A stretch of 64,000 nucleotides of DNA from an archaeon (GCA_020057295.1 JAGVGF010000004.1:59312-123311); one strand, 5' to 3'; shown: positions 30,139-48,174, counted from the first letter of the stretch. The notes: a model not told the origin generated them from the sequence alone. Made by a program: numbers and translations.

Positions 30139-30396
30139 TCACTCTACGGATCTTATAGCAGGCACTTTTGATACAGTGTATGCTCTACTAGTAAACTTTG
30201 CCTTACATTTATCACATTGCCATATACCTGTCGATATTCTACCAACTTTTGGAAACGCGCAGTATGGACATTTATGCTTCTTTTTTTGTTCAACTTCTAT
30301 TAATGCAACCTTTTCTCTATTTCTACGCCCATATCTTGTACCGTATCGTCCAACGGCTTTATAGTGTTTCATTGACTCTGCCATCTTAAACCTCAC
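30139..30396 (-). CDS. rpl37ae: Ribosomal protein L37Ae (eL43)
   Basis: KAVGRYGTRYG...CPYCAF...GIWQCDKCKAKF. Confidence 0.9.
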   Translation of the reverse strand: MRFKMAESMKHYKAVGRYGTRYGRRNREKVALIEVEQKKKHKCPYCAFPKVGRISTGIWQCDKCKAKFTSRAYTVSKVPAIRSVE

Positions 30397-30468
30397 ATGT
30401 AATATTAAAAGGATTAAAGAGGGATTTATAAAGGTTATTGTGTGATACGCTTATAGAATTAGGTTTTT

Positions 30469-30933
30469 TTAAGTTCTAAAATAAGGACCGTTAGTTGAGG
30501 AGTGAACTCTGTTATTATATTTCATATTCTGTGATTTTAATCTAGTCATTAACTTATTTGCATACTCTTTTTCATGAATTCTCCAAGATTCATGACCTTC
30601 TCTAAGAGTTAAAGGATGATTATCTGGAGAGTTACCTGGTGGTATGATTGTTCTGCTGGTTCTAAAATTTGTCTGAACTTGGCCTGTGGTTTGCTGATTG
30701 GTTGGTATATTGTTTTGAAATGTGTAACTTGTAGTGTTTAAGAATAAATCGAATATGTGTGGATTACTTTTTTCTGAATCTTCTGACGAGTTTTGATTTA
30801 TATTGTCTTCTGACCAAGAATTTTTGTAGGGTTTTATATCTACTATTTCTGGTCCTGTTTTATTTTTAGCTTCTGCAGCTTGCGTGGTTCCTAATGCTAG
30901 TCCTGCGCATAGTGCTAGTTCTAATTTGTTCAT
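30469..30933 (-). CDS. Secreted hypothetical protein (Sec signal peptide with AXA site)
   Basis: MNKLELALCAGLALGTTQAAEA signal peptide and an N/Q/T-rich mature part. Confidence 0.4.
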   Translation of the reverse strand: MNKLELALCAGLALGTTQAAEAKNKTGPEIVDIKPYKNSWSEDNINQNSSEDSEKSNPHIFDLFLNTTSYTFQNNIPTNQQTTGQVQTNFRTSRTIIPPGNSPDNHPLTLREGHESWRIHEKEYANKLMTRLKSQNMKYNNRVHSSTNGPYFRT

Positions 30934-31118
30934 AGTATTATTAGAACTAACTTATATATAAATGTTTCGTTTTTTAACTACTCTTAAGGGACAAAAATAA
31001 AAATGATTTTATTCTTTTTTAGATCCATTTCCCTTTAAGAAAGAAAAATTTCTAAAGAATTCATAATGAACATAATTTAATTCAGTTCTAGTTTCCATTA
31101 CCATTGCGATATTTCTTT

Positions 31119-31493
31119 CTATCTATATTGCCTGTTTTCTGTCATATAAGTCATTCTTAAATTTTCGAGGTCGTTGTGTACATATTTTAATAGATATTCA
31201 TTATAACGCTGTAATGCTTCGTGACTTCCAAGCAATTCTCCTGCTCGTGCGCGTTGAGAAATATTTAATAATGTATCTATGTGTCTTCGCGCGGTTGGTG
31301 GTGTTGTTAGTAAGATTGTTATATCTGTAAATTCCTGTACTAACGCTTTCTTTACATCAGCATTTGTGACTTCTTTTCTTAGCAATCTGTTTCCGTCATG
31401 TTCTCCAAATACAAAATAGAAGAATATTTCCTGCAAATTTTGAACATGACTCATGTTGTAAGAAAAGCAAAACCTATTTAAATATGTTACCAT
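31119..31493 (-). CDS. Hypothetical protein, divergent from the primase gene
   Basis: ORF only. Confidence 0.3.
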   Translation of the reverse strand: MVTYLNRFCFSYNMSHVQNLQEIFFYFVFGEHDGNRLLRKEVTNADVKKALVQEFTDITILLTTPPTARRHIDTLLNISQRARAGELLGSHEALQRYNEYLLKYVHNDLENLRMTYMTENRQYR

Positions 31494-33340
31494 TTTTGGA
31501 TAGTAATGGGGGTCTTATGGGACGCGTTGATTTAAGTATGTTTGTAGATGAATTATTATCACAGACAGATATTACGGAGCATATTGGACAAGTCGTATCT
31601 TTGAAAAAAAGAGGAAGCACATACTGGGCATGTTGTCCGTTTCATGAGGAAAAAACAGCGTCATTCCATGTTGATCCAAAAAAAGGTCTCTATAGTTGTT
31701 TTGGTTGTCACAGAGGAGGCAATCTTCTAACATTTTTTATGGAATATCAAAAGTTGAATTTCATTGAAGCAGTAAAATTTCTTGCAGAAAAAGAGGGCAG
31801 ACCGATGCCCGGATTTATGCATGAACGTGGAGAAAAAAATGCACATACAAGAGAAATACTCGAAGAGGCATTAACATATTTCACATCAAAATTAGAGACG
31901 TATCCAGAAGTCTACTCTTATCTTACAAGTGAAAGACGAGGATTAAATCCTGATACAATAAGAGAATATAGACTAGGATATGCTGAGCCTGGTTGGGATG
32001 GTTTGCTTAATCATCTTCGTGGAAAAGGATTTAGTATCGAAGATTTAATCAGGCAGAACCTTATATCAAAGAAATCATCGGCAGGAGAAAAATCCGAGTC
32101 ATTTAATGATTATTATGATCGTTTTCGTGGTAGAATAATAATTCCTATTTTTAATCATTTAGGTCAACTTACTGGATTTGCAGGACGTGTATTCAAAGAA
32201 GAGGATGCACAATATGGTAAGTATATTAATACAGCTGATGATACTCCTTTTGGCAAAACATCATATGTAAAGAAAAACACCTTGTTCGGTCTTGATAAGG
32301 CAGCACAATCAATCATTGACTTAGGAGAGGCAATATTAACTGAAGGATATTTTCATCATATAAGCAGTCACCAATCAGGTTTACTGAATGTTGTAGCATC
32401 TGGAGGTACTGCATTTACAAAAGAACAAGCAACACTTCTAAGAAGATATGCTGATAAGATATTAATATTAATGGACCCTGATGCAGCAGGAATAAGAGCT
32501 GCACGCACAGCTGCAGAGATAAGTTACGGTTTAGGTTTTAGTCCAAGATTAGGATTACTTCCAGAAGGCAAAGATCTTGATGATATCTCTAGAGAGTGCA
32601 AAAATAGAGATGCTATATTGCAAAGAATTTCTTTTATGGATATTCCACAATTCATAATACATACTACACAATACGATAGGAGTAATCCCGATGATGTTCA
32701 TCGTACATTAGAGGATTTAGCTAAATTCTTTTCTTTAGAAAAAAATGCTGGAAGAAAATTATTATGGATAAGCGAAACATCAAAAAGTCTTGATGTGCCG
32801 AAGGAAATTATTCATTCCTATATAAGAAAAGATATTAGAGAACCAGAAATTGATAGTGATACCATACCAGATACGTTGGTTAAATCGTACATTTATCATC
32901 TTCTAACAGCTCCTAAGGATTATAGAGCTACATTTCTTAGTGAGATACCTTGTGAAAGTAGAGTATTTAGATTCAATAAAGGTTTACAGATACTTTACAA
33001 AACCATTATAGAAGAGAGTCGCAAGAATCCTCAACAAAATTTAGATATTGAACCGCCAAGATTAGAAGAGTTAGATTTTGGAGTAATAAGGAGAGAACAA
33101 ATATTTGATTATTTAAGGAAAAAATTTATGGAGAGAACAATAGAACAATTTCCTTTTGAATTACAAGAATTTCTTTATAAAAAACCTAAAATAGATTTTA
33201 AGACAACTGTTTCATTATTAAGACATTACGTAAAAGAGTATCAACGCCAAGATTTAGTGCAGGGATTAGCAGAAGCATATAGAACAGAAAATGAAGAATC
33301 AATAAAAAGGATTTCAGAAGAGCTAAGAACATTAACATAA
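31484..33340 (+). CDS. dnaG: Bacterial-type DnaG primase (CHC2 zinc finger plus TOPRIM) with an extra C-terminal domain; the likely start is ATG 31517
   Basis: WACCPFHEEKTASFHVDPKKGLYSCFGCHRGGNLLTFFMEY zinc-binding domain and TOPRIM ILTEGYFH...ILILMDPDAAG. Confidence 0.8.
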   Translation: MLPFLDSNGGLMGRVDLSMFVDELLSQTDITEHIGQVVSLKKRGSTYWACCPFHEEKTASFHVDPKKGLYSCFGCHRGGNLLTFFMEYQKLNFIEAVKFLAEKEGRPMPGFMHERGEKNAHTREILEEALTYFTSKLETYPEVYSYLTSERRGLNPDTIREYRLGYAEPGWDGLLNHLRGKGFSIEDLIRQNLISKKSSAGEKSESFNDYYDRFRGRIIIPIFNHLGQLTGFAGRVFKEEDAQYGKYINTADDTPFGKTSYVKKNTLFGLDKAAQSIIDLGEAILTEGYFHHISSHQSGLLNVVASGGTAFTKEQATLLRRYADKILILMDPDAAGIRAARTAAEISYGLGFSPRLGLLPEGKDLDDISRECKNRDAILQRISFMDIPQFIIHTTQYDRSNPDDVHRTLEDLAKFFSLEKNAGRKLLWISETSKSLDVPKEIIHSYIRKDIREPEIDSDTIPDTLVKSYIYHLLTAPKDYRATFLSEIPCESRVFRFNKGLQILYKTIIEESRKNPQQNLDIEPPRLEELDFGVIRREQIFDYLRKKFMERTIEQFPFELQEFLYKKPKIDFKTTVSLLRHYVKEYQRQDLVQGLAEAYRTENEESIKRISEELRTLT

Positions 33341-33401
33341 TATTAATTTTATGATTTTATAATATTATTATAAGTTAAAACCATCAGGAGTTAAAGATAA
33401 T

Positions 33402-35372
33402 ATGATACTAAACATTTCTGGTCACAATTATACGTTGAGAGATTTTGAGAATGTAAGGCAAGAACTTCATAAATTCTATGAACGCTATGGAAAGAAAAAA
33501 CAGCCTACACAAGTTATGATTAGAACAAAAAATCCTTCATTATATCATCAGTTAAGATTGTGGGGATATAAATTATCAGGAAAGGGTTCGCCGAGATATG
33601 CTATAAAAGAAATGGGTCGTGATATAAAGACTGTGTTAAGTTTAGATGAAATAAAGGAACAGTTCAAATCTGTTTTTAACCCAGAATATGTCTCTAAATT
33701 TTATGGTACTCCAGGAAAGCGTGTGAGCATAAAAAAAGAAATGCTCGATGCTGGTCAGAGACAAAAACAAGCGTATTTTGCATGTTTTTTTAAAAAGAGA
33801 AATCTTTCTTTAAAAGATATTATTAATGGATTACACGGAGAACATCCTGATCTTTATGATGCGTTACATGGGTCTTTATTAACTAACGAAGTTATTGGCG
33901 ATAATTTAATAGATTTATATTATCAAGGTAAAGATTTATCTCCTGGTGCTATTGAGCGTACAAATAGTATTGGAAGCAGAATTAAGCATCAATTACAAAA
34001 AAGTATAAAGTCTGATAAAGGTTCTGAAAAATATTGGCATAATATGCTAAAATTCTTGCCTATCCCTAGAATAAATATTTCTGATTTACGTAGTGACGGT
34101 CAAGACGCTAGAGCTGTTATGTCACAAATAGTTGAATTACAGGCACAATTTTTATTAGAAATAGTAAAAAAATATGATCCTGAATGTTCTTCGATGAGTG
34201 ATACATTTAAAAAATTATTTGGACCAAAAATTACTGCAATATATCCAAGAAGTAATCAAGGCATGGTAGAGTTAGAGAATGGCAATACATTTGCTGATGC
34301 ACGTATACAATCCGGTTTAGAAGATATACTTTTAGAAGTAAAGAACAAAAATCTTTTAACAGACAGCCTTCATAAAAGACTAAGAAAATATGATTCTAAA
34401 CATTATTGGAATGATTCTAAAAGAATAACAAAAAAAGTTCTATTAGTAAACACAATCGATGAATGTGTAAGTGAGCATTTTGAGAGGTTTGAAAGGAAAG
34501 GTTGGGATGTTTGGAATACAACACAATTTTTTGAAGATTATAAAAAAGCAATAGATATTTTAATGCAAAATGATCCTTTGTTTTTCCAGAAATCTATGAT
34601 GCCTATGCAAAGTCAAGAATTAATGATGGATATTGCTAAGGAGATAACAACCACACCTCACCTACTTATGAGAAGATCACATGCATACAAAAGAAATTGG
34701 ATCAAGACATTACTTAAAGAAAATATTTTAGCTCTCACAAAAAATATTCCTAATCACGAAAGAGAAAATTATGCTGAATGTTATCGTGAACCATTTCTGG
34801 TTTTCGATCAATACTATCATGGTCGTGAAAAAGTATCTGTTCCTAACGTGTTGTTCGTAGATCTTGAAACAACAGGACATCTTAAAAATGGATCAATGAT
34901 TGTTGTTTTAGGGATGGCATATATGCATGAAGGACAGATGTATACAGAACTATTATTTGCCAGAAATCCTCAAGAAGAAAAAAGAATCTTAGAACGATTT
35001 AATCAACTATCACAACAATATGATACCATAGCGACATTTAACGGAGATTCTTTTGATAAACCCTTTTTACAAGAACGATTAAATGCTCATCTTATACGCT
35101 ATCCCAAAGAATGGAATCATGTAGATGTATATAAGAAATATAAACAAATAGCTAAAAAAAATAAATATCCTACAGCATCGCTACAAACATATGAGAGAAC
35201 AGAGTTAGGCTTAATAAGAAGAGGCGATATTTTAGGAAAAGATATTCCTCAAGCATATAAAGATTTTATAAATGGTATTGACGATCATACTATAAAGAAA
35301 GTTATTACTCATAATCATCTTGATGTAATAAGCTTAGCAATAATTTACGATCAATATTATCAGAAGAAATAA
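33402..35372 (+). CDS. Large hypothetical protein with a C-terminal RNase H-like (DEDD/YprB-type) 3'-5' exonuclease domain
   Basis: VLFVDLETTGH (Exo I), FNGDSFDKPFL (Exo II) and HNHLDVISLAIIYDQY (Exo III-like). Confidence 0.55.
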   Translation: MILNISGHNYTLRDFENVRQELHKFYERYGKKKQPTQVMIRTKNPSLYHQLRLWGYKLSGKGSPRYAIKEMGRDIKTVLSLDEIKEQFKSVFNPEYVSKFYGTPGKRVSIKKEMLDAGQRQKQAYFACFFKKRNLSLKDIINGLHGEHPDLYDALHGSLLTNEVIGDNLIDLYYQGKDLSPGAIERTNSIGSRIKHQLQKSIKSDKGSEKYWHNMLKFLPIPRINISDLRSDGQDARAVMSQIVELQAQFLLEIVKKYDPECSSMSDTFKKLFGPKITAIYPRSNQGMVELENGNTFADARIQSGLEDILLEVKNKNLLTDSLHKRLRKYDSKHYWNDSKRITKKVLLVNTIDECVSEHFERFERKGWDVWNTTQFFEDYKKAIDILMQNDPLFFQKSMMPMQSQELMMDIAKEITTTPHLLMRRSHAYKRNWIKTLLKENILALTKNIPNHERENYAECYREPFLVFDQYYHGREKVSVPNVLFVDLETTGHLKNGSMIVVLGMAYMHEGQMYTELLFARNPQEEKRILERFNQLSQQYDTIATFNGDSFDKPFLQERLNAHLIRYPKEWNHVDVYKKYKQIAKKNKYPTASLQTYERTELGLIRRGDILGKDIPQAYKDFINGIDDHTIKKVITHNHLDVISLAIIYDQYYQKK

Positions 35373-35374
35373 TT

Positions 35375-37774
35375 CTATACTATCTGACTATTGTGTTCAT
35401 GCTTATTAATACGTATTATGTTTTGTACGTAACTTTCCATTTTTGGCTCATGACTGACCATTATCAGCTGTTTCATGTCTAATTCGTAAAGCACATCACG
35501 CATTCTATCAAGTTGTTCTGAACTGAACCCATCTGTTGGTTCGTCTAAAATTATTAAATCCTTAGTTTTAATATTATTAATAAGATCATTAATAACCTTA
35601 TTTAGAGCAAGCCTATATGCTAATGCTACTGCTGTTTTTTCTCCACCAGACAAATTTGATATTTCCGTTTCGTAATTATTTTGAGTAACTAAAGGAGTGA
35701 ATTCATCATCAACTCTTACTTCAATATTTTCATCATCAATTAACATGGTAAACCATTTCTGGAATAACTCGTTGAATTCTATATGTATTTTTTGCATTAT
35801 AACTTTTTCGATAGTAGATGTTAAATTTACAAAATGTTCTGTAATCCAATAATTTAAATCATTAATATATGCTATTTTATCTTTGAGTTTATTTTTCTTA
35901 TCTATATCTTCTGTCAATTTAGAAATTTCTTTATTTGCGTTATCTAAATCTTTCTTTACACTTACAATTCTAATATCGCTCTCTCTTAATTGTTTATTAT
36001 TATCATCTAATTCTTTCTTTTTAGTATTATATTCTGACTCAATGTTTGCATATTGTGAGATTTTGTTATTATGTTCGTTATATTTTTCATTTAAATCTTT
36101 GACTTCATCCTGAATAATTTTATTACGCGAGTCTAATTCTATTTTTTGCGTACTTTTTTCTTTTAATGATTCTTCGATATGTTTTTTTACTTCAATATTA
36201 TTTAGTATCTTTCTATTTTTTGATATAGTCTCTATTAATTTATTTACATCCATATGATCTAACTTTTCTTTCTTTAGTTTTAAATCGTCAATTTCGTTAG
36301 TTAGCTGGGTTTTCAATTCTTGCTGTTTAGTAATATTAGATAATTTCATTGAAACTTCTTTTAATTCAATTTCGCTTTTTCTTAACTCTTCAAATCCTTC
36401 TTTAAGATTTTTAATCTTTATTTCTAAGTCTTTTTTCTTATTGTTTAATTCTACAATCTTTCTGTCTGTCCCTAATATGTTAGCGTTTTCTTTGTCTAGA
36501 ATTTTTACTTTGTGTGTAAAGTCTACATTTTGTAAACATAATGGACATGTATTTAAGTCCTTTAATTGATTCACAATTTTTAAAGAATTATTTTTACCAA
36601 TACTGATAGTATTTAATTCAATACTAATTTTATCGAGCAATACTTTTTCTTCATCGAGCTCTTTCTCTTTATGTGATTTTAATTCTAATCTCTTAGTTAT
36701 TATTTGTTGCTTGTAGTTTAATGCAGCGACATCTTCCACAATAAGATTCTCTATATCCCTTTGTTTATCTTCTAATCTTTTGCCAATTACCTCTTTTGCA
36801 GTTCTTATGCGTTCTAATTTTTGTTCGCTATCATTTAATTCTTGTCTTATTGTAGTTTCGTTCGAGTCTATAACTCCTAAATCTTTCAACTTATTGTTAT
36901 ACTCATTAATTCTGTATTCTATCATTCCTAATTCTTTAGTATTTCTATCAAGTTCTGACTTTTTATTTTTTAAGTGTAATAGCGATATCTCTAAATCTTT
37001 TTTTAAAATATTTAATGCGTTAATTTTATTCTCGTAGTTTTTGATGTCTGTATTTTTACTCTCATGTAAAGATTTTATTTCAGAATTAGCTTTTTCCTCT
37101 TCTGATAATGTCGATAACATCTTGTCTTTTAACGAAATCTGATCCTCTAAAGATTTTTTTATTAAATCTAAATCCTGTATTTTGCCTTCAATAATTTTTT
37201 TAGTATTACGCAACTCTTTTGCATACATCAACGAGTTTTCTCTAATTCTCTTATATTTGTCTATATCAAATATTTTTCTTAAAGTATCAAGTCTATCTTC
37301 TTTACTTTCTAGAAGAATTCTTTTCATCTCTTCCTGTGGTGTATAGACTGTATATCGATATATTAAACTAGTATTCTTATTAATTAATTCTTGAGGATAA
37401 CCAAATAATTCTAACATCTTAGATTTTAATTCTACTGGTGTCCCATCAAAAACTTTGCTATCAGTAATTATTTGTCCAGACTCCTGACCAATAACATCAT
37501 CCTTTCCACGTTTTAATTTCCTCACAATCCTTACTTCTTTATTATCAATGATAAATGTTAATTCTACACTTCCCTCTTTTTTTCCATGACGTAATAATGT
37601 TCCGCCGCTAATATCTCCTTTAATCAATCCAAACATTGCAAACTCTATAGCAAGTAATATTGTTGTCTTTCCTGAACCAATATCCCCAAGAAGAAGTGTA
37701 GAACCGTTCGTGAAATCAATACTTTGAGAATTGTATGAACGAATATTTTCCAGCTTTAAAGACTTAAGGAGCAT
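35375..37774 (-). CDS. Rad50/SbcC-like SMC-family ATPase with a zinc hook
   Basis: Walker A GDIGSGKTTILLAIEFAMFG, long coiled coils, CPLC hook, signature LSGGEKTAVALAYRLAL, Walker B LIILDEPTDGFS and H-loop MVSHE. No adjacent Mre11/SbcD. Confidence 0.8.
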   Translation of the reverse strand: MLLKSLKLENIRSYNSQSIDFTNGSTLLLGDIGSGKTTILLAIEFAMFGLIKGDISGGTLLRHGKKEGSVELTFIIDNKEVRIVRKLKRGKDDVIGQESGQIITDSKVFDGTPVELKSKMLELFGYPQELINKNTSLIYRYTVYTPQEEMKRILLESKEDRLDTLRKIFDIDKYKRIRENSLMYAKELRNTKKIIEGKIQDLDLIKKSLEDQISLKDKMLSTLSEEEKANSEIKSLHESKNTDIKNYENKINALNILKKDLEISLLHLKNKKSELDRNTKELGMIEYRINEYNNKLKDLGVIDSNETTIRQELNDSEQKLERIRTAKEVIGKRLEDKQRDIENLIVEDVAALNYKQQIITKRLELKSHKEKELDEEKVLLDKISIELNTISIGKNNSLKIVNQLKDLNTCPLCLQNVDFTHKVKILDKENANILGTDRKIVELNNKKKDLEIKIKNLKEGFEELRKSEIELKEVSMKLSNITKQQELKTQLTNEIDDLKLKKEKLDHMDVNKLIETISKNRKILNNIEVKKHIEESLKEKSTQKIELDSRNKIIQDEVKDLNEKYNEHNNKISQYANIESEYNTKKKELDDNNKQLRESDIRIVSVKKDLDNANKEISKLTEDIDKKNKLKDKIAYINDLNYWITEHFVNLTSTIEKVIMQKIHIEFNELFQKWFTMLIDDENIEVRVDDEFTPLVTQNNYETEISNLSGGEKTAVALAYRLALNKVINDLINNIKTKDLIILDEPTDGFSSEQLDRMRDVLYELDMKQLIMVSHEPKMESYVQNIIRINKHEHNSQIV

Positions 37775-37870
37775 AACCTTGAGAATAAATACAGCTTTAA
37801 AAGGTTTATTGTGATTTGTCCTGTGCCTATTTCTAGCACAACATTTTTAAAACACTTTAATTGTCTCACA

Positions 37871-37963: not shown

Positions 37964-38083
37964 AGCCCCGTAGTGTAGCGGTCAATCATGCAGGCCTTTG
38001 GTGGCAAAAATCAAAGATTTTTGAAAATCTTTGTCAAATGCCAAAGATAGCCTGTGACCCCAGTTCGAATCTGGGCGGGGCTA
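37964..38083 (+). tRNA. tRNA-Gln (UUG) with a 47-nt intron (38002-38048); integration target
   Basis: A1-U72 acceptor AGCCCCG/CGGGGCT, archaeal Gln-like D region, anticodon stem CAGGC/GCCTG with loop CUUUGG|A, exon-intron helices CTTTGG/CCAAAG and TGGCA/TGCCA, T arm CCCAG-TTCGAAT-CTGGG. Confidence 0.8.
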
Positions 38084-38169
38084 GTTTATTCTATCGTGAA
38101 AGTGAAGGGCTAAATCAGTACCAAAACTGTACTGAGAATATAAAAGTAAACTCGTCTAAACGTAGTTCT

Positions 38170-39306
38170 ATGGTGAAAATTCATCCAGAAGGACGCATAA
38201 TAGACAAGAAGTATTTATGGAACGGAGTACTTAATTTAACTAATTCTATTGAAAGAAGCGATATGCTTCAAGAGAATAAAGATTTGATAGGGCGATTTAT
38301 TCATGATGCCAGAATTGGTAAAACAATAAAGATAGGACAAAAAAAGCAAGTTGCCATCTTGCGTCAAGTAAAATATCTACAAGACCTAAAAAAACTTGAT
38401 GCTTACTTCAGGAAACCACTTGATAAAATAACACAATTAGAAATGGAACAGTTTATTCTTGATTTGGAGGAAGGTCGATTAAAGAAAAATAATGGGCAAC
38501 CATTCGCTAAAGAAACACAAGTATGTATGAAAAAAATTATAATTAAGTTCTATAAATGGTTGTTTGGTAAGAGTCGAACAGTGCCTGAACTTGTAGATTG
38601 GATAGACACAAGCATAGAAGTTAGAGACTATAAAGCTATACGAAAAGAAGACGTAGACACAATTTTAATTAGATATACCAGTAATACTACAGAAAATTTA
38701 TTGCGAAACAAAGCTATTATTATGTTTTTGTTTGACAGTGGAGCAAGAGCAGATGAACTTCTTAATGTGCGTTTGAATCATTTAACAATAGAAAATGGAA
38801 ATTATAAAGTTCGTATAGAATATTCTAAAACAAAGAAAAGAACTCTGTCTTTACCTTTTTCTAAGGAGTACCTTGATGCATGGTTAAAAGTTCATCCTGC
38901 AAAAGATGAACCATTGGCGCAATTATTTCCTGTAACGTATGCAGGATTATGCAATGTAGTTCATAGAGGTGGAGAATTAGTTAAAAAGAAACTAACTCCT
39001 CATGGTTTAAGACATAGCTCAGCAACACATTGGGCAAGAACGTTGTCGCAGTATGTTTTATGTGGACGTTTTGGATGGAGTATGAATAGTAAACAGCCTG
39101 CAAGATATATTGATAGAGAAGGATTAGACCAAGAGAAAGTACAAGAACAAGCTACTGCTGATAAAGTCATATCTTTAGAAAGCAAAAATTCACAGTTAAA
39201 TAGCAGAATAGCAATGCTAGAAGACCAGTTTGAAAAATTCTTCAAAGGAGATAAAGAAGAACTGATAAAGATAATTGATATCGTGAAAAAACAAAAGGAA
39301 TTATAA
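38170..39306 (+). CDS. int: Tyrosine recombinase/integrase (phage-integrase family); start re-set downstream of the tRNA
   Basis: HGLRHSSATHWA box II and the catalytic Tyr region QPARYIDRE. The listed ORF start at 38038 lies inside tRNA-Gln. Confidence 0.85.
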   Translation: MVKIHPEGRIIDKKYLWNGVLNLTNSIERSDMLQENKDLIGRFIHDARIGKTIKIGQKKQVAILRQVKYLQDLKKLDAYFRKPLDKITQLEMEQFILDLEEGRLKKNNGQPFAKETQVCMKKIIIKFYKWLFGKSRTVPELVDWIDTSIEVRDYKAIRKEDVDTILIRYTSNTTENLLRNKAIIMFLFDSGARADELLNVRLNHLTIENGNYKVRIEYSKTKKRTLSLPFSKEYLDAWLKVHPAKDEPLAQLFPVTYAGLCNVVHRGGELVKKKLTPHGLRHSSATHWARTLSQYVLCGRFGWSMNSKQPARYIDREGLDQEKVQEQATADKVISLESKNSQLNSRIAMLEDQFEKFFKGDKEELIKIIDIVKKQKEL

Positions 39307-39494
39307 TTGAAAGGAATTTTATCGGGCAAAGAATGCAGTATATTAGTTTATACTTTTTGCAAAAGAAATATCTTTATAAAACACAATTGCCATGAGTTAT
39401 TATGCACGTAATGAATACTCAAAAATATGATAAGAGAGACATTACTTCTATTAAGACTTATGCATAAAAACTTATTAATCATACACTAAGAGAG

Positions 39495-40745
39495 ATGACT
39501 GATGCACCAACAACTCTTAATAAAAATTCTGCAAAAGAAGTTAAAGGAAAATTCGGACAGTATTTAGAAAAATATTATTTTGGCATTGAAAATAATTCGA
39601 TTAGCGAACCTGATTTTAAAGAAGCAAAATTAGAATTAAAGAGTACGCCTATTAAACGTCTAAACAATGGAACATACACACCAAAAGAAAGATTAGTGTT
39701 AAATATTATTGATTATTGCGCTATTATTGAAGAGAAATGGGAAACATCTCACTTCCTCAGTAAAAATGAATTATTATTGTTAATTCTATATCTATACGAA
39801 ACAGATAAAAATTTTCTAGATTATCTAATAAGATATGTTACCCTTTGGAAAATTGAGGGTGCAGATAGAGAAATGATTAGACAGGACTGGGAAAAAATAG
39901 TTTCTAAAATAAAATCCGGTAAAGCCCACGAATTATCAGAAGGAGAAACATTTTATTTAGGTGCATGTAGAAAAGGATGGAAAGAAGAACCTAGAAAACA
40001 ACCTAATTCTCCGATTAGAGCGCCACAGAGAGCGTTTAGTTTTAAAGTTAAATATATGAGTGCCGTATTAAAGAGATTAGAAGATTCACAAAAACTAATC
40101 ACAGATATTTCTGAACTAAAGAAAAATAGTTTTGAAAATTTAGTGTATAATAAATTTCAACCGTTCTTGAATATGAATATAAAAAATATTGAACAAAAAT
40201 TACATACAAAACTAAATAGAAAATCAAAAGGTTACTATGCAGATTTAGCTAGGAGAATGATGGGAGTTTCAGCTAAGTATATCGAAGAATTCGAGAAGGC
40301 AGGCGTATCAATGAAAATAATACGTTTGAAACACAACGGCGTTCCAAAAGAAGATATGTCTTTTCCATATTTTAAATATAAAGAAATTGCAGAACAAGAG
40401 TGGGATGAGAGCAATTTTAGTGAACAATTAGAAAGCAAATTCTTTTTTGTAGTTTATCAAATGAATAAAGATGAATCAAAAATATTTTTTAAAAAAGCAT
40501 TTTTTTGGAATATGCCTATAACAGATATGGCTGAATGTGAAGCAGTCTGGATTGAAACTAAAAAAAGAATTATTTCTGGGAAAGCAGATACTTTACCTAA
40601 AAAAATAGAGAATAGAGTTTCTCACGTCAGACCTCACGCAAGAAATAAACAAGATACTGATATAGCACCTAATGGAAAATTATATGTAAAAAAATGCTTT
40701 TGGTTGAATTCTAAATACTTAAAAGAACAAATAGAAAATAATTAG
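39495..40745 (+). CDS. MutH/Sau3AI-family type II restriction endonuclease (probable GATC specificity)
   Basis: GQYLEKYYFGIENNSISEPDFKEAKLELKSTPIKR...WETSHFLSKNEL parallels MutH GVLLEIWLGASAGS...DFAALGVELKTIPVD...WETSHVRHKL, with the D-(x)n-E-x-K catalytic motif. It is convergent with and overlaps the C5 methyltransferase. Confidence 0.7.
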   Translation: MTDAPTTLNKNSAKEVKGKFGQYLEKYYFGIENNSISEPDFKEAKLELKSTPIKRLNNGTYTPKERLVLNIIDYCAIIEEKWETSHFLSKNELLLLILYLYETDKNFLDYLIRYVTLWKIEGADREMIRQDWEKIVSKIKSGKAHELSEGETFYLGACRKGWKEEPRKQPNSPIRAPQRAFSFKVKYMSAVLKRLEDSQKLITDISELKKNSFENLVYNKFQPFLNMNIKNIEQKLHTKLNRKSKGYYADLARRMMGVSAKYIEEFEKAGVSMKIIRLKHNGVPKEDMSFPYFKYKEIAEQEWDESNFSEQLESKFFFVVYQMNKDESKIFFKKAFFWNMPITDMAECEAVWIETKKRIISGKADTLPKKIENRVSHVRPHARNKQDTDIAPNGKLYVKKCFWLNSKYLKEQIENN

Positions 40746-42442
40746 TTCTTGATTAAAGAAACAAAGTATCCGCATGCATATGCACCAATTATTGTTAATA
40801 ACGGTATCTCTGCTCTTTCAATCTCTATAAATTTATTTTCTATCGATACAGCTTCTTGATTAGTATAGTGTTTAGTTATTAATTTTCTTATTAGTTCTAA
40901 TGCTTTATCTGGGGAAACAACTTTAGATTTTCCATTTAACACATATGATTCTTGTAATTCTCTTGCAGATAATTTGAAATCTTTGAAAGAGTTTTCTAAG
41001 TCTTTTTTAAATGTGGAGAAATTTTTATTTGAGAATAGTACTTTATCTAATTTTTTTAAATCTAGGATTGCAACCTTCGCGCTCTTGCCAGAACCGTAAT
41101 GTACTTTAGACTTCCAAACGTATTTTCCTTTAGAAAATTCAGAATCTGTGTTACTAAGTTCTACTCTGAAGCTTTTAATCTTTAAATAAGGTATTGGAAT
41201 TGCAAATCTCGCATCTTTGGCTCGTGGTTTTGGAACTTTAGGACTTCTTTTTATTCCAGTCAAATCAAAAGAAGATTTTATGATTTTTTGAGGAATGTAT
41301 TCTTGAATTTTTGTTCTTTCTGCTTTTGCAATAGCTTCTGCCAAAGCCGAAGATAATTTACAACATACTGCATTTCCGATTAATTTATATTTAGTATTTT
41401 CGTTTGCTCCTTCGAACTGATATGTTATGGGGAAAGACATAAAACATGCGATTTCTCTTATTGTAGGCAATCTATATCCTGTTTGCTTGTTTGATTTAAT
41501 TGCTTCAAAGATTATAGATTCTCTTGTTGATGCTGACATAGTTGCCATAACTGTTCTACTAGGTCTATCTAGATATTCTGGAAAAGACATTTTTCCCATA
41601 AATCCGTGGTCTTCTTTTAACCTTTTTGACCTCATCCATTCATAATCTGCAACGCTAGTATCATAGAAGTGGTCAGTTAAATTTTTTGAATCTAATTCAA
41701 AACCATATACTGGGTCTTTTATTTTTGAAGGATGAGTTATATCTAGTGGATTAGATAATGCTTTTTGAACATTACGCATTGTAATCCAAGATTTTTTATC
41801 TTCGTGACTTTTATATGGTTCAGGATAATTTCCACATACGAATCTTTTTCTAGTTTGTGGCGCACCATACTCTGCAGCATTTAATATTCCTTTAACAGGA
41901 ATTTCTATAGCGATTTTTTTTCCGCCAGGCAATCCCAATTCTTCCCAAGTGTATGAATCTTGAATATATTTCCCTGAATTAGGAACATTTTCCAAAATCC
42001 AATACTTGCATGTGCCTTTTTTTAGCTTTACAGCAATTATTCTTAGATACGCTTTGATAAGTCTTATACCTAAACTTTTATCAGCCTTTCCAGCTTTATT
42101 TGAGCCTGAAAAAGAAACACATGGAGGACTTCCGACAATAATGTCTGTGTCTGGAACAATATTTTCTATCTTTTCTATAGTATCTAACTCTAATATGTCC
42201 ATTAATTCACATTGACAATCAGGATGATTTAAATCATGAGTCTTCTTGGCTGGTGCCCAATTATCTAGAGAGAAAACTACATCAAATCCTTTTTGACGAA
42301 ATCCTTCTGAGAATCCACCAGCACCACAGAAAAAATCTGCTACTGTTAATTTTTTACTCACCATTATACTAGTTATATTGTATCTATTTTTAAAGTTTTC
42401 GATCGATTGTCCAATGATTTTATGATTAAGTATTTTAAACAA
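40742..42442 (-). CDS. dcm: DNA (cytosine-5) methyltransferase
   Basis: Motif I FFCGAGGFSEGF, motif IV GSPPCVSFSGSN (catalytic PC), motif VI WILENVPN. Confidence 0.85.
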   Translation of the reverse strand: MFKILNHKIIGQSIENFKNRYNITSIMVSKKLTVADFFCGAGGFSEGFRQKGFDVVFSLDNWAPAKKTHDLNHPDCQCELMDILELDTIEKIENIVPDTDIIVGSPPCVSFSGSNKAGKADKSLGIRLIKAYLRIIAVKLKKGTCKYWILENVPNSGKYIQDSYTWEELGLPGGKKIAIEIPVKGILNAAEYGAPQTRKRFVCGNYPEPYKSHEDKKSWITMRNVQKALSNPLDITHPSKIKDPVYGFELDSKNLTDHFYDTSVADYEWMRSKRLKEDHGFMGKMSFPEYLDRPSRTVMATMSASTRESIIFEAIKSNKQTGYRLPTIREIACFMSFPITYQFEGANENTKYKLIGNAVCCKLSSALAEAIAKAERTKIQEYIPQKIIKSSFDLTGIKRSPKVPKPRAKDARFAIPIPYLKIKSFRVELSNTDSEFSKGKYVWKSKVHYGSGKSAKVAILDLKKLDKVLFSNKNFSTFKKDLENSFKDFKLSARELQESYVLNGKSKVVSPDKALELIRKLITKHYTNQEAVSIENKFIEIERAEIPLLTIIGAYACGYFVSLIKN

Positions 42443-42511
42443 CAGTTAGTATTAAATGTTGATTGTTTAAGATAAATTTAAATATATGATAACTTACTAA
42501 TTATTGAGAGT

Positions 42512-43723
42512 ATGAAAGAAGTAAAAGAGACACTAAAAAATACTAATTTTAGAATATACAAATATGTATTTGTTATTGATACAAATATATGTTTTAATAA
42601 ACGGTTTAGTTATGATGTCCTTAACAATAGATTGCTCAAGGAATTAATAGAGATTAGAGATGAGTATAATTTACATAATTCTCTTGGAAATATAAGTCTA
42701 AATATCCCTCAAATAGTTAAAGAAGAAAGATTATTTCAAAAAAAGCAAATTTTCAATACCAATAAACCCAATATCGGAAATAGATTGAAAGAACTTAATG
42801 ACCTGGAATTAGTAAATAAATTTGAAGATGTTCTCAAACAATACCCCTCTAAACTAGAGAATAATTTAGAAAAAGAATTACAGAAGGATAAAATATTGAC
42901 TATCCCTTATTGTGATGATAGTTACTTAAAAGAAATAATAAAAAAAGCCGTTGACAAAAAAACGCCCTTTAGAGCAGTAACTATTACAAATAATGAATTA
43001 ATCGGGGAGCAGGGATTTAAAGATTGCGTATTATGGTATTCTATTTTTTCTCATGCAATGAAAATTCCGCGCAAAACTCCTCATATATATGTATTACTAA
43101 CAGCTAATATTAGAGATTTTAATAGCGTTGATAATATTAAAGAATTTGAAGACAAAACAGGGCATAAAATAAGAATAATTAATTATGCTTTGAAAACAAA
43201 TGAATTGAACAAGATGTTTATGGAAGATTTTAAAACATATCAAATACATCATGTAGAAATAAATTATAAATTAAAAGAAAATAATTCTTATGTATCTAGC
43301 GCCAATATATATAGCGATGGATTGATATTTGATGTTTCTTTAGAAAATAAATCATATATTGGAGAAATCTCTCTTCAGAAAGCTGATATTATCAAAGATA
43401 TTGAAGAAGAATTGGGAAGGGAAATATCTTCTGATGTCAGCGTAGAATTTATACTTGATGAGATAGCAGAGATATCTGTTTCTATAGAATACTATAAATG
43501 GTTCTATAGAATATCTAGCATAAATCTATGGTATTCCAATGGTGATGAAGAAGAAGTTGACTATAAATTTTATGATGGGATGGAATGGGTTTTATTAGAA
43601 GATGAAGAGGGAAATTCTAAAAAATTTGAAACAGATGTTTATGAACTTTTAAAAGAAGCAGGATATGATTGCGATGATGTAAATATAAATTATAGTGTCA
43701 CAGAATATACTGAAGATGATTAA
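42512..43723 (+). CDS. Hypothetical protein with an N-terminal PIN-like motif and an acidic C-terminus
   Basis: YVFVIDTNICFN resembles a PIN first strand with Asp. The rest is not recognisable. Confidence 0.35.
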   Translation: MKEVKETLKNTNFRIYKYVFVIDTNICFNKRFSYDVLNNRLLKELIEIRDEYNLHNSLGNISLNIPQIVKEERLFQKKQIFNTNKPNIGNRLKELNDLELVNKFEDVLKQYPSKLENNLEKELQKDKILTIPYCDDSYLKEIIKKAVDKKTPFRAVTITNNELIGEQGFKDCVLWYSIFSHAMKIPRKTPHIYVLLTANIRDFNSVDNIKEFEDKTGHKIRIINYALKTNELNKMFMEDFKTYQIHHVEINYKLKENNSYVSSANIYSDGLIFDVSLENKSYIGEISLQKADIIKDIEEELGREISSDVSVEFILDEIAEISVSIEYYKWFYRISSINLWYSNGDEEEVDYKFYDGMEWVLLEDEEGNSKKFETDVYELLKEAGYDCDDVNINYSVTEYTEDD

Positions 43724-43736
43724 TTTTTTTTTAAAG

Positions 43737-46779: not shown

Positions 46780-47014
46780 TAGATAACATGCGAACTCGTT
46801 ACTTGTATGCAGATAAACGTATCTGTATTGATAGGGTATTATTTATTGTTTATAAAGGAAGTGATTTTTCTATTATATGGTCTATTCCTATTTTAAATCA
46901 GAACATGTGGCGTATATGTGTATCGATTAATTTTCAGAGCTACAATTATATTCAAATTGATAAATTATACTGCCTATAAAATTTAATATTATGTTATGTA
47001 GAAATGTTATATAC

Positions 47015-47055
47015 CTAATGTACGTTACAGCTAATGTAGCTAAACAGCTAATGTA
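47015..47055 (+). promoter_or_regulatory. Three direct repeats of CTAATGTA (two as CAGCTAATGTA, 17-nt spacing) in the AT-rich intergenic region of the element
   Basis: Copies at 47015-47022, 47028-47038 and 47045-47055, upstream of the minus-strand HTH gene cluster. Candidate operator or iteron. Confidence 0.35.
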
Positions 47056-47128
47056 ACTATAAAGCGTAGCTTTATTAGCCTAATTATTTATTTTTGTTCT
47101 TGATTTATGCCTAATCTAATATCTTAAA

Positions 47129-47163
47129 CACACATACATACCTGTGTGCGATATGTATGTGTG
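47129..47163. repeat. Inverted repeat CACACATACATA-(11 nt)-TATGTATGTGTG
   Basis: Perfect 12-bp arms read from the sequence, in the same intergenic region. Confidence 0.5.
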
Positions 47164-47349
47164 CGTGGCGGGGTGTTTTCTGATTAACTATAAGTTGCAC
47201 TTTTTTATTTTTGAACTGTTAATTTTTTTGTTAAGTATTAATACTAGCACTCTCTAAAAAAATATTTTTATATCTAAAGTTATTAACTATTATTATTAAT
47301 AGATATTTATTATAATTATTTATTATACGTATGCAACAACACTTTATAT

Positions 47350-47871: not shown

Positions 47872-48174
47872 TTAAATCACCTGGTCTGTTTTATTTGTTC
47901 GTAGCAACGCTTCTTTAGCGTCTTATTGCGACTTTTTATTCTGTTTGATAGTTTTCCATCTTCTTTTGAAAAATCTGTTTCTACAGCAAGGATTGCAGAA
48001 TTTTGCATCTTTACGCTTTCCCGAGAGTGGTCTTTGACACTCCGAGCATTTTGAGCTATTCATGGGATAATAGTTCTGATTCAAAATGCTCTAGAGTGAT
48101 TAGCAGTATTTCTTGTCTATCTTCAGGATAATTTTCTTTTATGTACTGAATTATTTGTTGTTTAAGTTCTTGGT

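What the first reader, a model, noticed from the sequence alone, without database searches (positions are those of the whole stretch)
30469..37860. Second accessory block with a bacterial-type zinc-finger DnaG primase, a DEDD-exonuclease fusion protein and a standalone Rad50/SbcC-like ATPase
Archaeal chromosomal DnaG lacks the CHC2 zinc finger. The primase at 31484-33340 has the full bacterial or phage-type zinc-binding domain plus TOPRIM, and about 280 further residues. It is followed by a 656-aa protein whose last 200 aa form a DnaQ/YprB-like exonuclease, and by a zinc-hook SMC ATPase with no Mre11 partner. The block sits between the conserved L37Ae cluster and tRNA-Gln. A gene encoding a secreted protein with a Sec-type signal peptide lies at its left edge. 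This looks like the replication module of an integrated plasmid or virus, or a primase-linked defense or repair system.
Basis: partly seen in the sequence, partly recalled or inferred. Interest (0 to 1): 0.6.

Follow-up and report, generated by a model that had tools for sequence, protein, structure and literature searches.

The report
Inserted primase–nuclease module beside core Rad50
In this Woesearchaeota (DPANN archaeon) chromosome, a 4.9-kb insertion carries an apparently undescribed three-gene unit: a bacterial-type DnaG primase, a two-nuclease partner and a small helical protein. The neighbouring Rad50 gene is ordinary core genome, and the real integrated mobile island lies on the other side of the tRNA.

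Summary
The domain calls hold. The 618-aa protein is a full bacterial-type DnaG, the 656-aa protein ends in a YprB/MrfB-like DEDDh exonuclease, and the 799-aa protein is a zinc-hook Rad50-like ATPase. tRNA-Gln(TTG) carries an intron.

The block is not one unit. Three sister genomes (Rad50 64-71% identical, more than 15 genes colinear) put Rad50 directly next to L37Ae, so Rad50 is core synteny. Only about 30432-35374 is an insertion, and its DnaG and nuclease have no close relatives (best 37-39% and 34-35%).

The insertion carries a module: a small helical protein gene, divergent from DnaG, which is followed by the nuclease gene. I found DnaG followed by the nuclease gene in all 10 distinct places examined, flanked mostly by housekeeping genes. 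All named members are Woesearchaeota.

The partner also has a central PD-(D/E)xK nuclease domain with invariant E245, D299, E312 and K314.

The insertion has no integrase, terminal repeats, compositional deviation, or virus, plasmid or defence-system match. The real integrative island, with integrase, a restriction-modification pair and a short pAgo, is att-flanked at 38070-49507, beyond the tRNA.

Best reading: a horizontally acquired accessory primase-nuclease module for DNA repair or replication restart. A defence role is the main rival. The function is inferred, not shown.

The parts
30139..30396 (-). Ribosomal protein L37Ae gene. This is the core left flank of the insertion.
   Evidence: It is 85-87% identical to the L37Ae genes of L009, L011 and L012 in colinear order. 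The L009 orthologue carries PF01780.
30404..30428 (-). Conserved L37Ae promoter (CTTTATAAATCCCTCTTTAATCCTT). Homology with the sister genomes resumes here, which marks the left edge of the insertion.
   Evidence: Direct sequence comparison of the window, L011 and L012.
30432..35374 (.). An insertion of about 4.9 kb, absent from the sister genomes. It holds four ORFs. Its right edge lies 2 nt from the Rad50 stop codon.
   Evidence: The Rad50-L37Ae gap is 76 bp in L011. In L012 it is 180 bp and holds a tRNA-Pro. In L009 it holds one APH kinase gene. No terminal repeats were found. GC, GC3 and codon usage lie within the core range.
30469..30933 (-). Orphan 154-aa ORF with an N-terminal signal-peptide-like segment. 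It is cargo of the insertion, not part of the conserved module.
   Evidence: It has no Pfam, NCBIfam, PADLOC or PHROG hit. None of the other module loci has a homologue. The hydrophobic N-terminus is shown. A host-type BRE/TATA element at 30948-30974 is 93% identical to the one upstream of ORF 60815-61234 (repeat D1).
31119..31493 (-). Small helical protein of 111-124 aa, transcribed divergently from dnaG. It is the first gene of the conserved module. The likely start is 31454.
   Evidence: Homologues lie in the same position in L001, L002, L003 and L004 (BLASTP 2e-8 to 5e-4). ORFs in the same position in L005, L007 and L008 share the FFxY, E(I/L) and Y..YL motifs in the alignment only. L023 has an uncompared 180-aa ORF in that position. 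No family hit.
31484..33340 (+). Bacterial-type DnaG primase. It has a CHC2 zinc ribbon, an RNA-polymerase core with TOPRIM, and a lineage-specific C-terminal region of about 200-250 aa. The likely start is 31517.
   Evidence: The C-terminal region is shared only with other module-type DnaGs (97% coverage for P0002 and P0003), and more loosely with a few Patescibacteria-type DnaGs.
33402..35372 (+). Dual-nuclease partner. It has an N-terminal helical region (aa 1-230), a PD-(D/E)xK nuclease domain (about aa 233-372), a helical linker, and a MrfB/YprB-like DEDDh 3'-5' exonuclease (aa 480-656).
   Evidence: Pfam PF13482 at 2.3e-30. Invariant E245, D299, E312, K314, D487, E489, D552, H637 and D641 across 13-26 family members. 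AF2 model with pLDDT 88.9 and an alpha-beta-beta-beta-alpha-beta core at aa 233-350. Foldseek matches MrfB 8un9 at 1.2e-4. Weak fold hits for the N-terminal part are enriched in HamA, MspJI, Mrr and other PD-(D/E)xK nucleases. One member hits Pfam HamA at 0.008.
35375..37774 (-). Rad50 orthologue with a zinc hook (CPLC, aa 410-413). This is a core gene and not part of the insertion.
   Evidence: At least 18 relatives at 64-71% identity, from Woesearchaeota. Colinear synteny in L009, L011 and L012. Best NCBIfam match is archaeal Rad50 PRK03918 at 2.8e-34. Best PDB matches are M. jannaschii and P. furiosus Rad50. Mre11-like genes lie directly upstream of the 35-44%-identical orthologues in L014, L018 and L019.
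37964..38083 (+). tRNA-Gln(UUG) with an insertion (intron) of about 45-50 nt. Its 3' end is the attL of the neighbouring island.
   Evidence: Rfam RF00005 at 49.2 bits. Intron-less tRNA-Gln(ttg) orthologues lie next to Rad50 in L011 and L012.
38070..49507 (+). Integrated defence island of about 11.4 kb, bounded by a 14-nt direct repeat (TCTGGGCGGGGCTA). It lies outside the finding and is the real mobile element at this tRNA.
   Evidence: The repeat occurs at 38070-38083 and 49494-49507, with 0 matches expected by chance. The island holds a tyrosine integrase (38170-39306), a MutH/Sau3AI-like endonuclease and a C5 methylase. It also holds PIN_12, a short pAgo (1.5e-150) and an APAZ-type partner (1.6e-32). 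Core sequence resumes with S15 at 49688.

Best explanation
**Shown.**
- The finding covers two unrelated things.
- The Rad50-like gene is the lineage's own Rad50 orthologue in its conserved chromosomal position: L37Ae cluster, Rad50, tRNA-Gln.
- Between Rad50 and L37Ae, this genome alone has acquired about 4.9 kb. That DNA carries a conserved Woesearchaeota three-gene module plus one orphan ORF that looks secreted.
- The module consists of:
  - a small helical protein gene, transcribed divergently;
  - a complete bacterial-type DnaG primase;
  - immediately downstream, a protein with two nuclease domains, PD-(D/E)xK and a MrfB-like DEDDh 3'-5' exonuclease.

**Inferred.**
- DnaG and the nuclease form a complex. 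The two genes abut or overlap in most loci. The C-terminal region of this DnaG, which replaces the DnaB-binding domain, is the likely docking surface.
- The zinc ribbon recognises exposed single-stranded DNA, and the TOPRIM core lays down an RNA primer.
- The partner cuts with its PD-(D/E)xK domain and resects 3'-5' with its DEDDh domain.
- I read this as an accessory DNA repair or replication-restart device: repriming plus end or flap processing at damaged or stalled DNA. It spreads horizontally among DPANN chromosomes.
- It is not an integrated virus or plasmid, and it is not the host's vertically inherited replicative primase.
For: **Insertion.**
- The order RpoA2...L37Ae-[gap]-Rad50-tRNA-Gln is colinear in L009, L011 and L012, and the gap lacks DnaG and the nuclease.
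- The best non-self DnaG is 37-39% identical and the best non-self nuclease 34-35%, against 64-71% for Rad50.

**Module.**
- The nuclease gene follows DnaG on the same strand, abutting or overlapping it, in the window, L001-L005, L007, L008, L022 and L023.
  - L006 is a near-identical copy of L005 from a second sample.
  - The upstream gene in L022 is cut by the contig end and was not checked.
- The small-ORF family is conserved.
- All named members are Woesearchaeota.
- The exhaustive search gave 43 representatives at E <= 1e-30 and roughly 60 full-length ones.

**Enzymology.**
- DnaG scores above the TIGR01391 cutoff and keeps the CHC2 and TOPRIM residues.
- The catalytic residues of both nuclease domains are invariant.
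- The exonuclease domain's best fold match is MrfB, with PolB editing domains also matching.

**Housekeeping context.**
- Flanks elsewhere include eIF2-gamma, S7, prefoldin, SRP54, L15e, PolB, eIF6, PGK, ADK and PCNA.
- A DnaB gene lies next to the module in L007.

**Not a mobile element.**
- The insertion has no integrase, no terminal repeats and no compositional deviation.
- No relatives were found in phage records, plasmids or IMG/VR.
Against: - No experiment or characterised homologue ties this module to repair.
- The patchy distribution, the fast divergence and a HamA/Mrr-like nuclease domain are also what a defence system would show.
- In this window the module sits 2.7 kb from a defence island.
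- TOPRIM looks degenerate in one family member, L007, so priming may not always be the essential activity.
- One acidic position of the DnaG active site (E. coli D269, numbering recalled from memory) is His here and Asn in L001.
- I could not see the rest of the genome. Whether the host keeps PriSL, or has DnaB or Mre11, is unknown.
- Only 10 distinct neighbourhoods were examined.
Confidence: 0.5

Rival explanations
1. The three-gene module is an antiviral defence system. DnaG, through its zinc ribbon and possibly primer synthesis, senses invading or replicating foreign single-stranded DNA. It then licenses the dual nuclease to destroy that DNA. The small divergent gene would be a regulator or inhibitor.
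For: - The module is absent from sister genomes and has no close relatives.
- Family members are highly divergent, at most about 39% identical apart from the L002/L004 pair.
- The PD-(D/E)xK domain's weak matches point to HamA (Hachiman), MspJI and Mrr nucleases.
- PADLOC holds DnaG-like proteins associated with DRT defence systems (RT_UG29 at 8e-34; RTasDnaG-like at 4e-29).
- The insertion site is a variable hot spot next to a restriction-modification and pAgo island.
- TOPRIM is degenerate in L007 while the zinc ribbon is kept.
Against: - No PADLOC system model matches beyond the shared domains.
- The nine other neighbourhoods are mostly housekeeping, not defence islands.
- This DnaG is conserved at the level of replicative primases, scoring above the TIGR01391 cutoff.
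Confidence: 0.3
2. The block would be the replication module of an integrated plasmid or virus, now decayed to a remnant.
For: - DnaG-type primases are common in phages and plasmids (PHROG phrog_6444 at 1e-89).
- The DNA is an insertion relative to the sister genomes.
- In L007, DnaB lies next to the module, like a phage or plasmid primosome.
Against: - No integrase, att site or terminal repeats flank the insertion.
- No structural or partition genes are present.
- The same compact three-gene unit sits mostly among housekeeping genes in all nine other places examined.
- The nuclease has no relatives in 50,697 phage records beyond its exonuclease domain. The limited pattern scan of IMG/VR found none.
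- The best plasmid-collection DnaG matches are about 31% identical chromosomal-type genes.
- Composition equals the core.
Confidence: 0.1
3. The module is the vertically inherited replicative primase of this lineage, either replacing or supplementing the fused PriS-PriL of cluster-2 DPANN. It only looks accessory because it evolves quickly.
For: - The DnaG domain set is complete.
- The neighbourhoods are housekeeping, with replication genes nearby (PolB in L005, PCNA in L023).
- Surveys list 'DnaG' among the conserved DPANN replication genes (PMC8407392; bioRxiv 10.64898/2026.05.13.725050). These probably mean the archaeal exosome-type DnaG.
Against: - Three colinear sister genomes lack the module at this site, and the database holds no orthologue above 39% identity although at least 18 close relatives are sampled.
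- All cluster-2 DPANN are reported to keep a fused PriS-PriL (PMC7414124).
- The family is small, with roughly 60 representatives at 50% clustering.
Confidence: 0.05

Closest known systems
Bacterial replicative primase DnaG (TIGR01391 / COG0358; for example Aquifex aeolicus 2au3)
   Same: It has the CHC2 zinc ribbon, the DNAG_N core and TOPRIM, with most catalytic residues conserved. It scores above the NCBIfam cutoff.
   Different: - It is encoded in an archaeon.
- Its C-terminal region does not match the DnaB-binding domains PF08278 or PF10410.
- It is not in an rpsU-dnaG-rpoD context. A Patescibacteria DnaG of similar length is in that context.
- It is always followed by a dual-nuclease gene.
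- The position equivalent to E. coli D269 (numbering from memory) is His.
Archaeal DnaG (the exosome-associated TOPRIM protein)
   Same: Both carry a TOPRIM domain and occur in archaea.
   Different: By established knowledge (PMC4227792, listed), archaeal DnaG lacks the zinc ribbon and has an N-terminal RNA-binding domain. The protein here has the zinc ribbon, and its best hits outside the module family are bacterial DnaGs.
MrfB/YprB of Bacillus subtilis (the exonuclease of the MrfAB mitomycin-C repair pair; PDB 8un9)
   Same: The C-terminal 175 aa match PF13482 with a DEDDh active site, and 8un9 is the best solved fold match. MrfB is a 3'-5' DNA exonuclease acting in repair (PMC11194089; bioRxiv 10.1101/2025.09.15.676423).
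   Different: The partner gene is a primase, not the MrfA/YprA helicase. The protein carries an extra 470-aa N-terminal part that includes a PD-(D/E)xK nuclease domain. No TPR domain was detected.
HamA (Hachiman) and Mrr/MspJI-type PD-(D/E)xK nucleases
   Same: The central domain has an E...D...ExK motif and an alpha-beta-beta-beta-alpha-beta core. The top weak fold hits are these proteins.
   Different: No match is statistically significant (best E-values 1.4e-3, 8e-3 and 2.3e-2). There is no HamB helicase partner and no methyl-DNA-binding domain.
Archaeal Mre11-Rad50
   Same: The 799-aa protein has the Rad50 head motifs and a mid-protein CxxC hook. Its orthologues in Nanoarchaeota and Micrarchaeota sit just downstream of an Mre11-like gene.
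   Different: In this clade Rad50 stands alone, and so it does in L009, L011, L012, L013, L016 and L017. It scores far below the NCBIfam equivalog cutoffs (118 against 700 bits) and is shorter than canonical Rad50.

Membership tests
Bacterial DnaG primase | CHC2 zinc-binding domain | tested here: met
   PF01807 at 1.1e-32. CPFH at aa 51-54 and CFGC at aa 72-75.
Bacterial DnaG primase | RNA-polymerase core with TOPRIM acidic residues | tested here: met
   DNAG_N at 2e-25 and Toprim_2 at 1.6e-17. E287, D331/D333 and D364/D366 align with the Aquifex and Pseudomonas DnaG residues. One position (E. coli D269, numbering from memory) is His.
Bacterial DnaG primase | Score above the curated family cutoff (TIGR01391) | tested here: met
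   319.2 bits against a cutoff of 283.6.
Bacterial DnaG primase | C-terminal DnaB-binding domain and a DnaB partner | tested here: not met
   There is no PF08278 or PF10410 hit, although many bacterial hits carry them. The window has no DnaB. Whether DnaB occurs elsewhere in the genome cannot be tested. L007 has DnaB next to the module.
MrfB/YprB-like DEDDh exonuclease (PF13482) | DEDDh catalytic residues and fold | tested here: met
   PF13482 at 2.3e-30. D487, E489, D552, H637 and D641 are invariant. Foldseek matches 8un9 at 1.2e-4.
MrfAB repair pair | Adjacent MrfA/YprA (DUF1998) helicase | tested here: not met
   None of the module loci examined has one. The upstream gene is DnaG wherever it could be identified.
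PD-(D/E)xK nuclease superfamily | E/D...D...(D/E)xK motif on an alpha-beta-beta-beta-alpha-beta core | tested here: met
   E245, D299, E312 and K314 are invariant in 13-26 sequences. The AF2 secondary-structure elements are H233-258, E277-282, E300-304, E307-315, H321-330 and E344-350.
PD-(D/E)xK nuclease superfamily | Significant sequence or fold match to a known member | tested here: inconclusive
Archaeal Rad50 | ABC head motifs plus a CxxC zinc hook at mid coiled coil | tested here: met
   Walker A at aa 30, CPLC at 410, SGGE at 709 and Walker B at 740. The best NCBIfam and PDB hits are archaeal Rad50.
Archaeal Rad50 | Adjacent Mre11 nuclease | tested here: not met
   None is adjacent in the window, L009, L011, L012, L013, L016 or L017. 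One is present upstream of the orthologues in L014, L018 and L019. The rest of the genome cannot be tested.
Lamassu (LmuB) | An LmuB-like SMC ATPase with adjacent LmuA (and LmuC) effector genes | tested here: not met
   The PADLOC LmuB hit is 5.8e-31, no better than the Rad50 hit, and no LmuA or LmuC neighbour exists. The gene is in core synteny.
Integrated mobile element (tRNA-targeting island, provirus or plasmid) | Integrase, flanking att or terminal repeats, mobile-element hallmark genes | tested here: not met
   For 30432-35374 there is none. The features are met instead by the neighbouring island at 38070-49507.
Integrated mobile element (tRNA-targeting island, provirus or plasmid) | Absence from the same site in close relatives | tested here: met
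   L009, L011 and L012 lack it.
Known anti-phage defence systems (PADLOC 2.0) | Match to a system-specific protein model set | tested here: not met
   Only domain-level hits were found: DRT-associated primase domains and a weak DEDDh match. The small ORF hits nothing.

The most novel reading that the evidence does not exclude
The trio is a previously undescribed Woesearchaeota/DPANN-specific system: a small helical protein, a bacterial-type DnaG, and a PD-(D/E)xK plus DEDDh dual nuclease. In it, a bacterial-style primase works without DnaB and is physically coupled to nucleases. Two roles are possible. One is a new kind of primase-triggered antiviral defence. The other is a bacterial-type repriming and repair machine that operates alongside the archaeal MCM and PriSL replisome and spreads horizontally between archaeal chromosomes.
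Probability: 0.35. Interest if true: 0.75.

Novelty: new variant of a known kind. Interest (0 to 1): 0.55.

Why it matters
- Archaea are thought to prime replication with PriS/PriL, and their own 'DnaG' works in the RNA exosome.
- Here a complete bacterial-type DnaG is fixed in a conserved operon with a dual nuclease across many Woesearchaeota. That would be a clear case of a bacterial replication enzyme re-wired in archaea.
- The system is tractable. It has three genes and clear catalytic residues, so one can test what a DnaG primase does without DnaB.
- The work also corrects the map of this locus:
  - Rad50 is core genome.
  - The mobile defence island, with a restriction-modification pair and a short pAgo, is a separate att-flanked element at tRNA-Gln.
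  - The stretch from L37Ae through Rad50 to tRNA-Gln is a hot spot of variable insertions in this lineage.

Tried and rejected
- **Single three-gene block (DnaG, exonuclease, Rad50).** Rejected by synteny with L009, L011 and L012.
- **Compositional test for foreign DNA.** GC, GC3 and codon usage of the insertion lie within +/-1.1 SD of the core. The att-flanked island is equally unremarkable, so the test carries no information.
- **Terminal repeats around the insertion.** Only chance-level short matches turned up. A 10-nt inverted match, TATAGAATTA, at both edges that I saw by eye is not significant in this AT-rich DNA.
- **Rad50 as Lamassu LmuB.** The PADLOC hit is no better than the Rad50 hit, there are no partner genes, and the gene is in core synteny.
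- **Virus or plasmid origin.**
  - Phage records matched only the exonuclease domain (tblastn).
  - The IMG/VR pattern scan found nothing.
  - The best plasmid-collection DnaG hits are about 31% identical chromosomal-type genes.
  - The PHROG hits are generic primase and exonuclease families.
- **Origin from Patescibacteria together with the partner.** The Patescibacteria DnaG with full-length similarity sits in a normal dnaG-rpoD operon with no nuclease.
- **Searches that failed technically.**
  - The word-indexed search with the nuclease found only itself.
  - The genome-contig scan with the single protein found nothing.
  - Alignments A1 and A2 were too divergent for pattern scans.
  - The metagenome-contig scan with A4 found nothing.
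- **Literature.** I found no description of this operon.

Full report
**1. What is at the coordinates**

The ORF map matches the finding. Pfam gives these results:
- 31484-33340 (+): Zn_ribbon_DnaG at 1.1e-32, DNAG_N at 2e-25 and Toprim_2 at 1.6e-17.
- 33402-35372 (+): RNase_H_2 (PF13482) at 2.3e-30 on aa 484-651, and nothing on the first 480 aa.
- 35375-37774 (-): AAA_23 and SbcC_Walker_B.

Further checks on the primase:
- It passes NCBI's bacterial dnaG model (TIGR01391, 319 bits against a cutoff of 283.6).
- It aligns to Aquifex DnaG 2au3 (1.3e-49), with the CHC2 ligands and the TOPRIM Glu and DxD motifs in place.
- One acidic position (E. coli D269, numbering recalled from memory) is His here.
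- The last 200-250 residues hit neither DnaB-binding Pfam family.

The Rad50-like protein has a Walker A motif, a mid-protein CPLC hook, a signature motif and a Walker B motif. Its best hits are archaeal Rad50 in NCBIfam and PDB.

Rfam finds a tRNA with anticodon UUG and an insertion of about 45-50 nt at 37964-38083. ARAGORN's default run had missed it. The two small ORFs at 30469-30933 and 31119-31493 have no family hits.

**2. The organism and the flanks**

The rest of the window is archaeal core genome. It holds thermosome, FtsZ, S3Ae, RNA polymerase B and A subunits, NusA, S12, L37Ae, prefoldin-beta, S15, a RecJ-like DHH protein, AlaRS and XPD. The closest named relatives are Candidatus Woesearchaeota MAGs.

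**3. Rad50 is core; DnaG and the nuclease are an insertion**

The Rad50-like protein has at least 18 full-length relatives at 64-71% identity. I fetched three of their loci: L009, L011 and L012.

More than fifteen genes are colinear with the window. They run from RpoA'' through NusA, S12, FKBP, MscS, UPF0147, prefoldin-beta, Pcc1 and L37Ae to Rad50 and tRNA-Gln.

The space between Rad50 and L37Ae differs in each genome:

| Genome | Content of the Rad50-L37Ae gap |
|---|---|
| L011 | 76 bp |
| L012 | 180 bp holding a tRNA-Pro |
| L009 | one APH kinase gene |
| window | about 4.9 kb (about 30432-35374) with four ORFs |

On the left, homology resumes at the conserved L37Ae promoter, CTTTATAAATCCC.... 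On the right, the nuclease stop codon is 2 nt from the Rad50 stop.

DnaG and the nuclease have no close relatives anywhere. The best non-self matches are 37-39% for DnaG and 34-35% for the nuclease. So the sister species lack orthologues altogether, not merely at this site.

Rad50 itself is the orthologue of the Rad50 that follows an Mre11-like Metallophos gene in more distant DPANN (L014, L018, L019). In this clade it stands alone.

**4. The insertion carries a conserved module**

The Woesearchaeota contig encoding the best DnaG hit (L001, 421 kb) has the same arrangement: a 124-aa ORF divergent from DnaG, then DnaG, then a 662-aa RNase_H_2 protein. These lie between CarS, prefoldin and SRP54 on one side and eIF2-gamma and S7 on the other. 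The nucleases align end to end (29% identity, 9e-71), and the small ORFs are homologous (2e-8).

An exhaustive HMMER search with the nuclease found 43 representatives at E <= 1e-30 and roughly 60 full-length family members.

I looked at ten distinct places: the window, L001-L005, L007, L008, L022 and L023. L006 is a near-identical copy of L005 from a second sample.
- In nine of them a zinc-ribbon DnaG lies directly upstream of the nuclease gene on the same strand, often overlapping by a few bases.
- In L022 the upstream gene overlaps the nuclease gene in the same way, but it is cut by the contig end and was not checked.
- In eight of them a small divergently transcribed ORF of the same family lies upstream of DnaG. 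L023 has an uncompared 180-aa ORF in that position.

Flanks differ from place to place and are mostly housekeeping: L15e, PolB, eIF6, PGK, ADK, arginase and PCNA. L007 has a DnaB helicase gene beside the small ORF. All members that carry a name are Woesearchaeota, annotated only as hypothetical or RNase H-like. A Patescibacteria DnaG with full-length similarity sits in an ordinary dnaG-rpoD operon with no nuclease.

**5. Anatomy of the partner protein**

The alignment of 26 members has ten invariant columns, and they fall into two clusters:
- D299, E312 and K314, joined by E245 in the 13-sequence N-terminal alignment.
- D487, E489, D552, H637 and D641.

The AF2 model is confident (pLDDT 88.9, pTM 0.79).
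- **C-terminal domain.** It is a DEDDh exonuclease. Its best solved match is B. subtilis MrfB/YprB (8un9, 1.2e-4), followed by PolB and PolC editing domains.
- **Central domain.** Residues 233-350 form an alpha-beta-beta-beta-alpha-beta core with D299 at the start of the second strand and ExK on the third. That is the PD-(D/E)xK arrangement.

A separate model of aa 1-470 (pLDDT 84) gave no significant fold match. Its weak hits, however, are dominated by PD-(D/E)xK nucleases:
- HamA of Hachiman, MspJI, Bax1, Can2 and Mus81 in the PDB.
- Mrr-type and PD-(D/E)xK proteins in BFVD, the best at 1.4e-3.
- Pfam HamA at 0.008 in one family member.

I therefore call the protein a dual nuclease. The first about 230 residues are helical and uncharacterised.

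**6. Is it a mobile element or a defence system?**

Evidence against an integrated virus or plasmid:
- The insertion has no integrase and no terminal repeats.
- Its GC, GC3 and codon usage do not deviate from the core.
- No relatives appear in phage records, IMG/VR or plasmids beyond generic domains.

The real integrative element is on the other side of the tRNA:
- The tRNA's 3' 14 nt recur at 49494-49507, with 0 matches expected by chance.
- The repeats bracket an integrase, a MutH/Sau3AI-like endonuclease with a C5 methylase, a PIN_12 protein, and a short pAgo with its APAZ-type partner.

Evidence against a known defence system: PADLOC gives only domain-level hits, and nine of the ten neighbourhoods are mostly housekeeping.

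Evidence that keeps a defence role plausible:
- The distribution is patchy and divergence is strong.
- The endonuclease domain is HamA/Mrr-like.
- TOPRIM is degenerate in L007.
- In this genome the insertion sits at a variable hot spot.

**7. Mechanism**

Shown:
- The three genes form a conserved unit.
- DnaG has an intact zinc ribbon and, here, an essentially intact active site.
- Both nuclease sites are under purifying selection.

Inferred:
- DnaG and the nuclease form a complex. The genes abut or overlap, and DnaG has a lineage-specific C-terminal region where bacteria have the DnaB-binding domain.
- The zinc ribbon selects single-stranded DNA and a primer is made.
- The partner cuts and resects.

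I favour an accessory repair or replication-restart role, at about 0.5. The reasons are the MrfB-like exonuclease, the replicative-grade DnaG and the housekeeping context. A defence role stands at about 0.3, a mobile-element remnant at about 0.1, and a vertically inherited replicative primase at about 0.05. Cluster-2 DPANN are reported to keep a fused PriS-PriL (PMC7414124).

**8. Comparison and novelty**

Each domain belongs to a known family, namely bacterial DnaG, PD-(D/E)xK and MrfB-like DEDDh. The combination as a fixed operon in archaea is not in PADLOC, Pfam or NCBIfam as a unit. I did not find it in the searchable literature either. One possibly relevant paper could not be read. I rate it a new variant of known kinds, of moderate interest. 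The Rad50 gene and the tRNA-linked island are ordinary.

Noticed in passing
window 38070-49507: An integrated island of about 11.4 kb at the 3' end of tRNA-Gln, bounded by the 14-nt direct repeat TCTGGGCGGGGCTA. It carries a tyrosine integrase, a MutH/Sau3AI-like endonuclease with a C5 methylase, PIN_12, a short pAgo (PADLOC pAgo_I, 1.5e-150) with a Schlafen/APAZ-type partner, and two unknown genes. It is a compact archaeal defence island in a DPANN genome.
   Followed up: partly
window 37872-37885 and 37961-37974: An exact 14-nt duplicate (TATAGCCCCGTAGT) of the tRNA-Gln 5' end plus 3 upstream nt lies 89 nt upstream of the tRNA, with 0 matches expected by chance. The sequence between the copies is richer in GC and contains a hairpin (gtgttcac-TTCG-tgaagcac). 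The sister genome L011 has only about 84 nt between the tRNA and Rad50. This could be a scar of an old integration or a small RNA. It is unexplained.
   Followed up: partly
window 30948-30974 and 61250-61276: A near-identical 27-nt BRE/TATA-like element (25 of 27 nt) lies upstream of two unrelated small ORFs, the 154-aa ORF and the 139-aa ORF at 60815-61234. The 139-aa ORF has an unusually high GC3 of 0.45 (z = 4.4).
   Followed up: partly
L009 2098-8103; L012 7246-7334; L010 446-1654: The stretch from L37Ae through Rad50 to tRNA-Gln is a hot spot of variation in this lineage. L009 has an APH kinase between Rad50 and L37Ae, two unknown genes between tRNA-Gln and Rad50, and its own integrase beyond the tRNA. 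L012 has an intron-bearing tRNA-Pro(CGG) in the gap. L010 has an integrase-like gene and many small ORFs upstream.
   Followed up: partly
L007 4427-8004: One module variant has a DnaB-family helicase gene (PF00772 plus PF03796) next to the small ORF. Its DnaG keeps the zinc ribbon but has lost the TOPRIM Glu and DxD motifs. I did not establish whether L007 and the GC-rich L008, which has bacterial-type MetK and a beta-lactamase-like gene, are archaeal.
   Followed up: no
window 14656-14777 (-), 59867-59977 (-), 37964-38083 (+): Rfam calls three tRNA genes that ARAGORN's default run misses. All are long (111-122 nt), which implies introns. This fits DPANN-style intron-bearing tRNAs.
   Followed up: no
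window 35375-37774 and orthologues in L009, L011, L012, L013, L016, L017: In this Woesearchaeota clade Rad50 stands alone, whereas Nanoarchaeota and Micrarchaeota orthologues (L014, L018, L019) keep an Mre11-like gene directly upstream. Whether Mre11 was lost or moved could not be checked.
   Followed up: partly
L012 (CAZFVG010000002.1) and L016 (CAYMBN010000007.1): These contigs are labelled 'uncultured Methanosarcinales archaeon' in their records. L012 is colinear with the Woesearchaeota window and 64-94% identical to it. The taxonomic labels look wrong.
   Followed up: no
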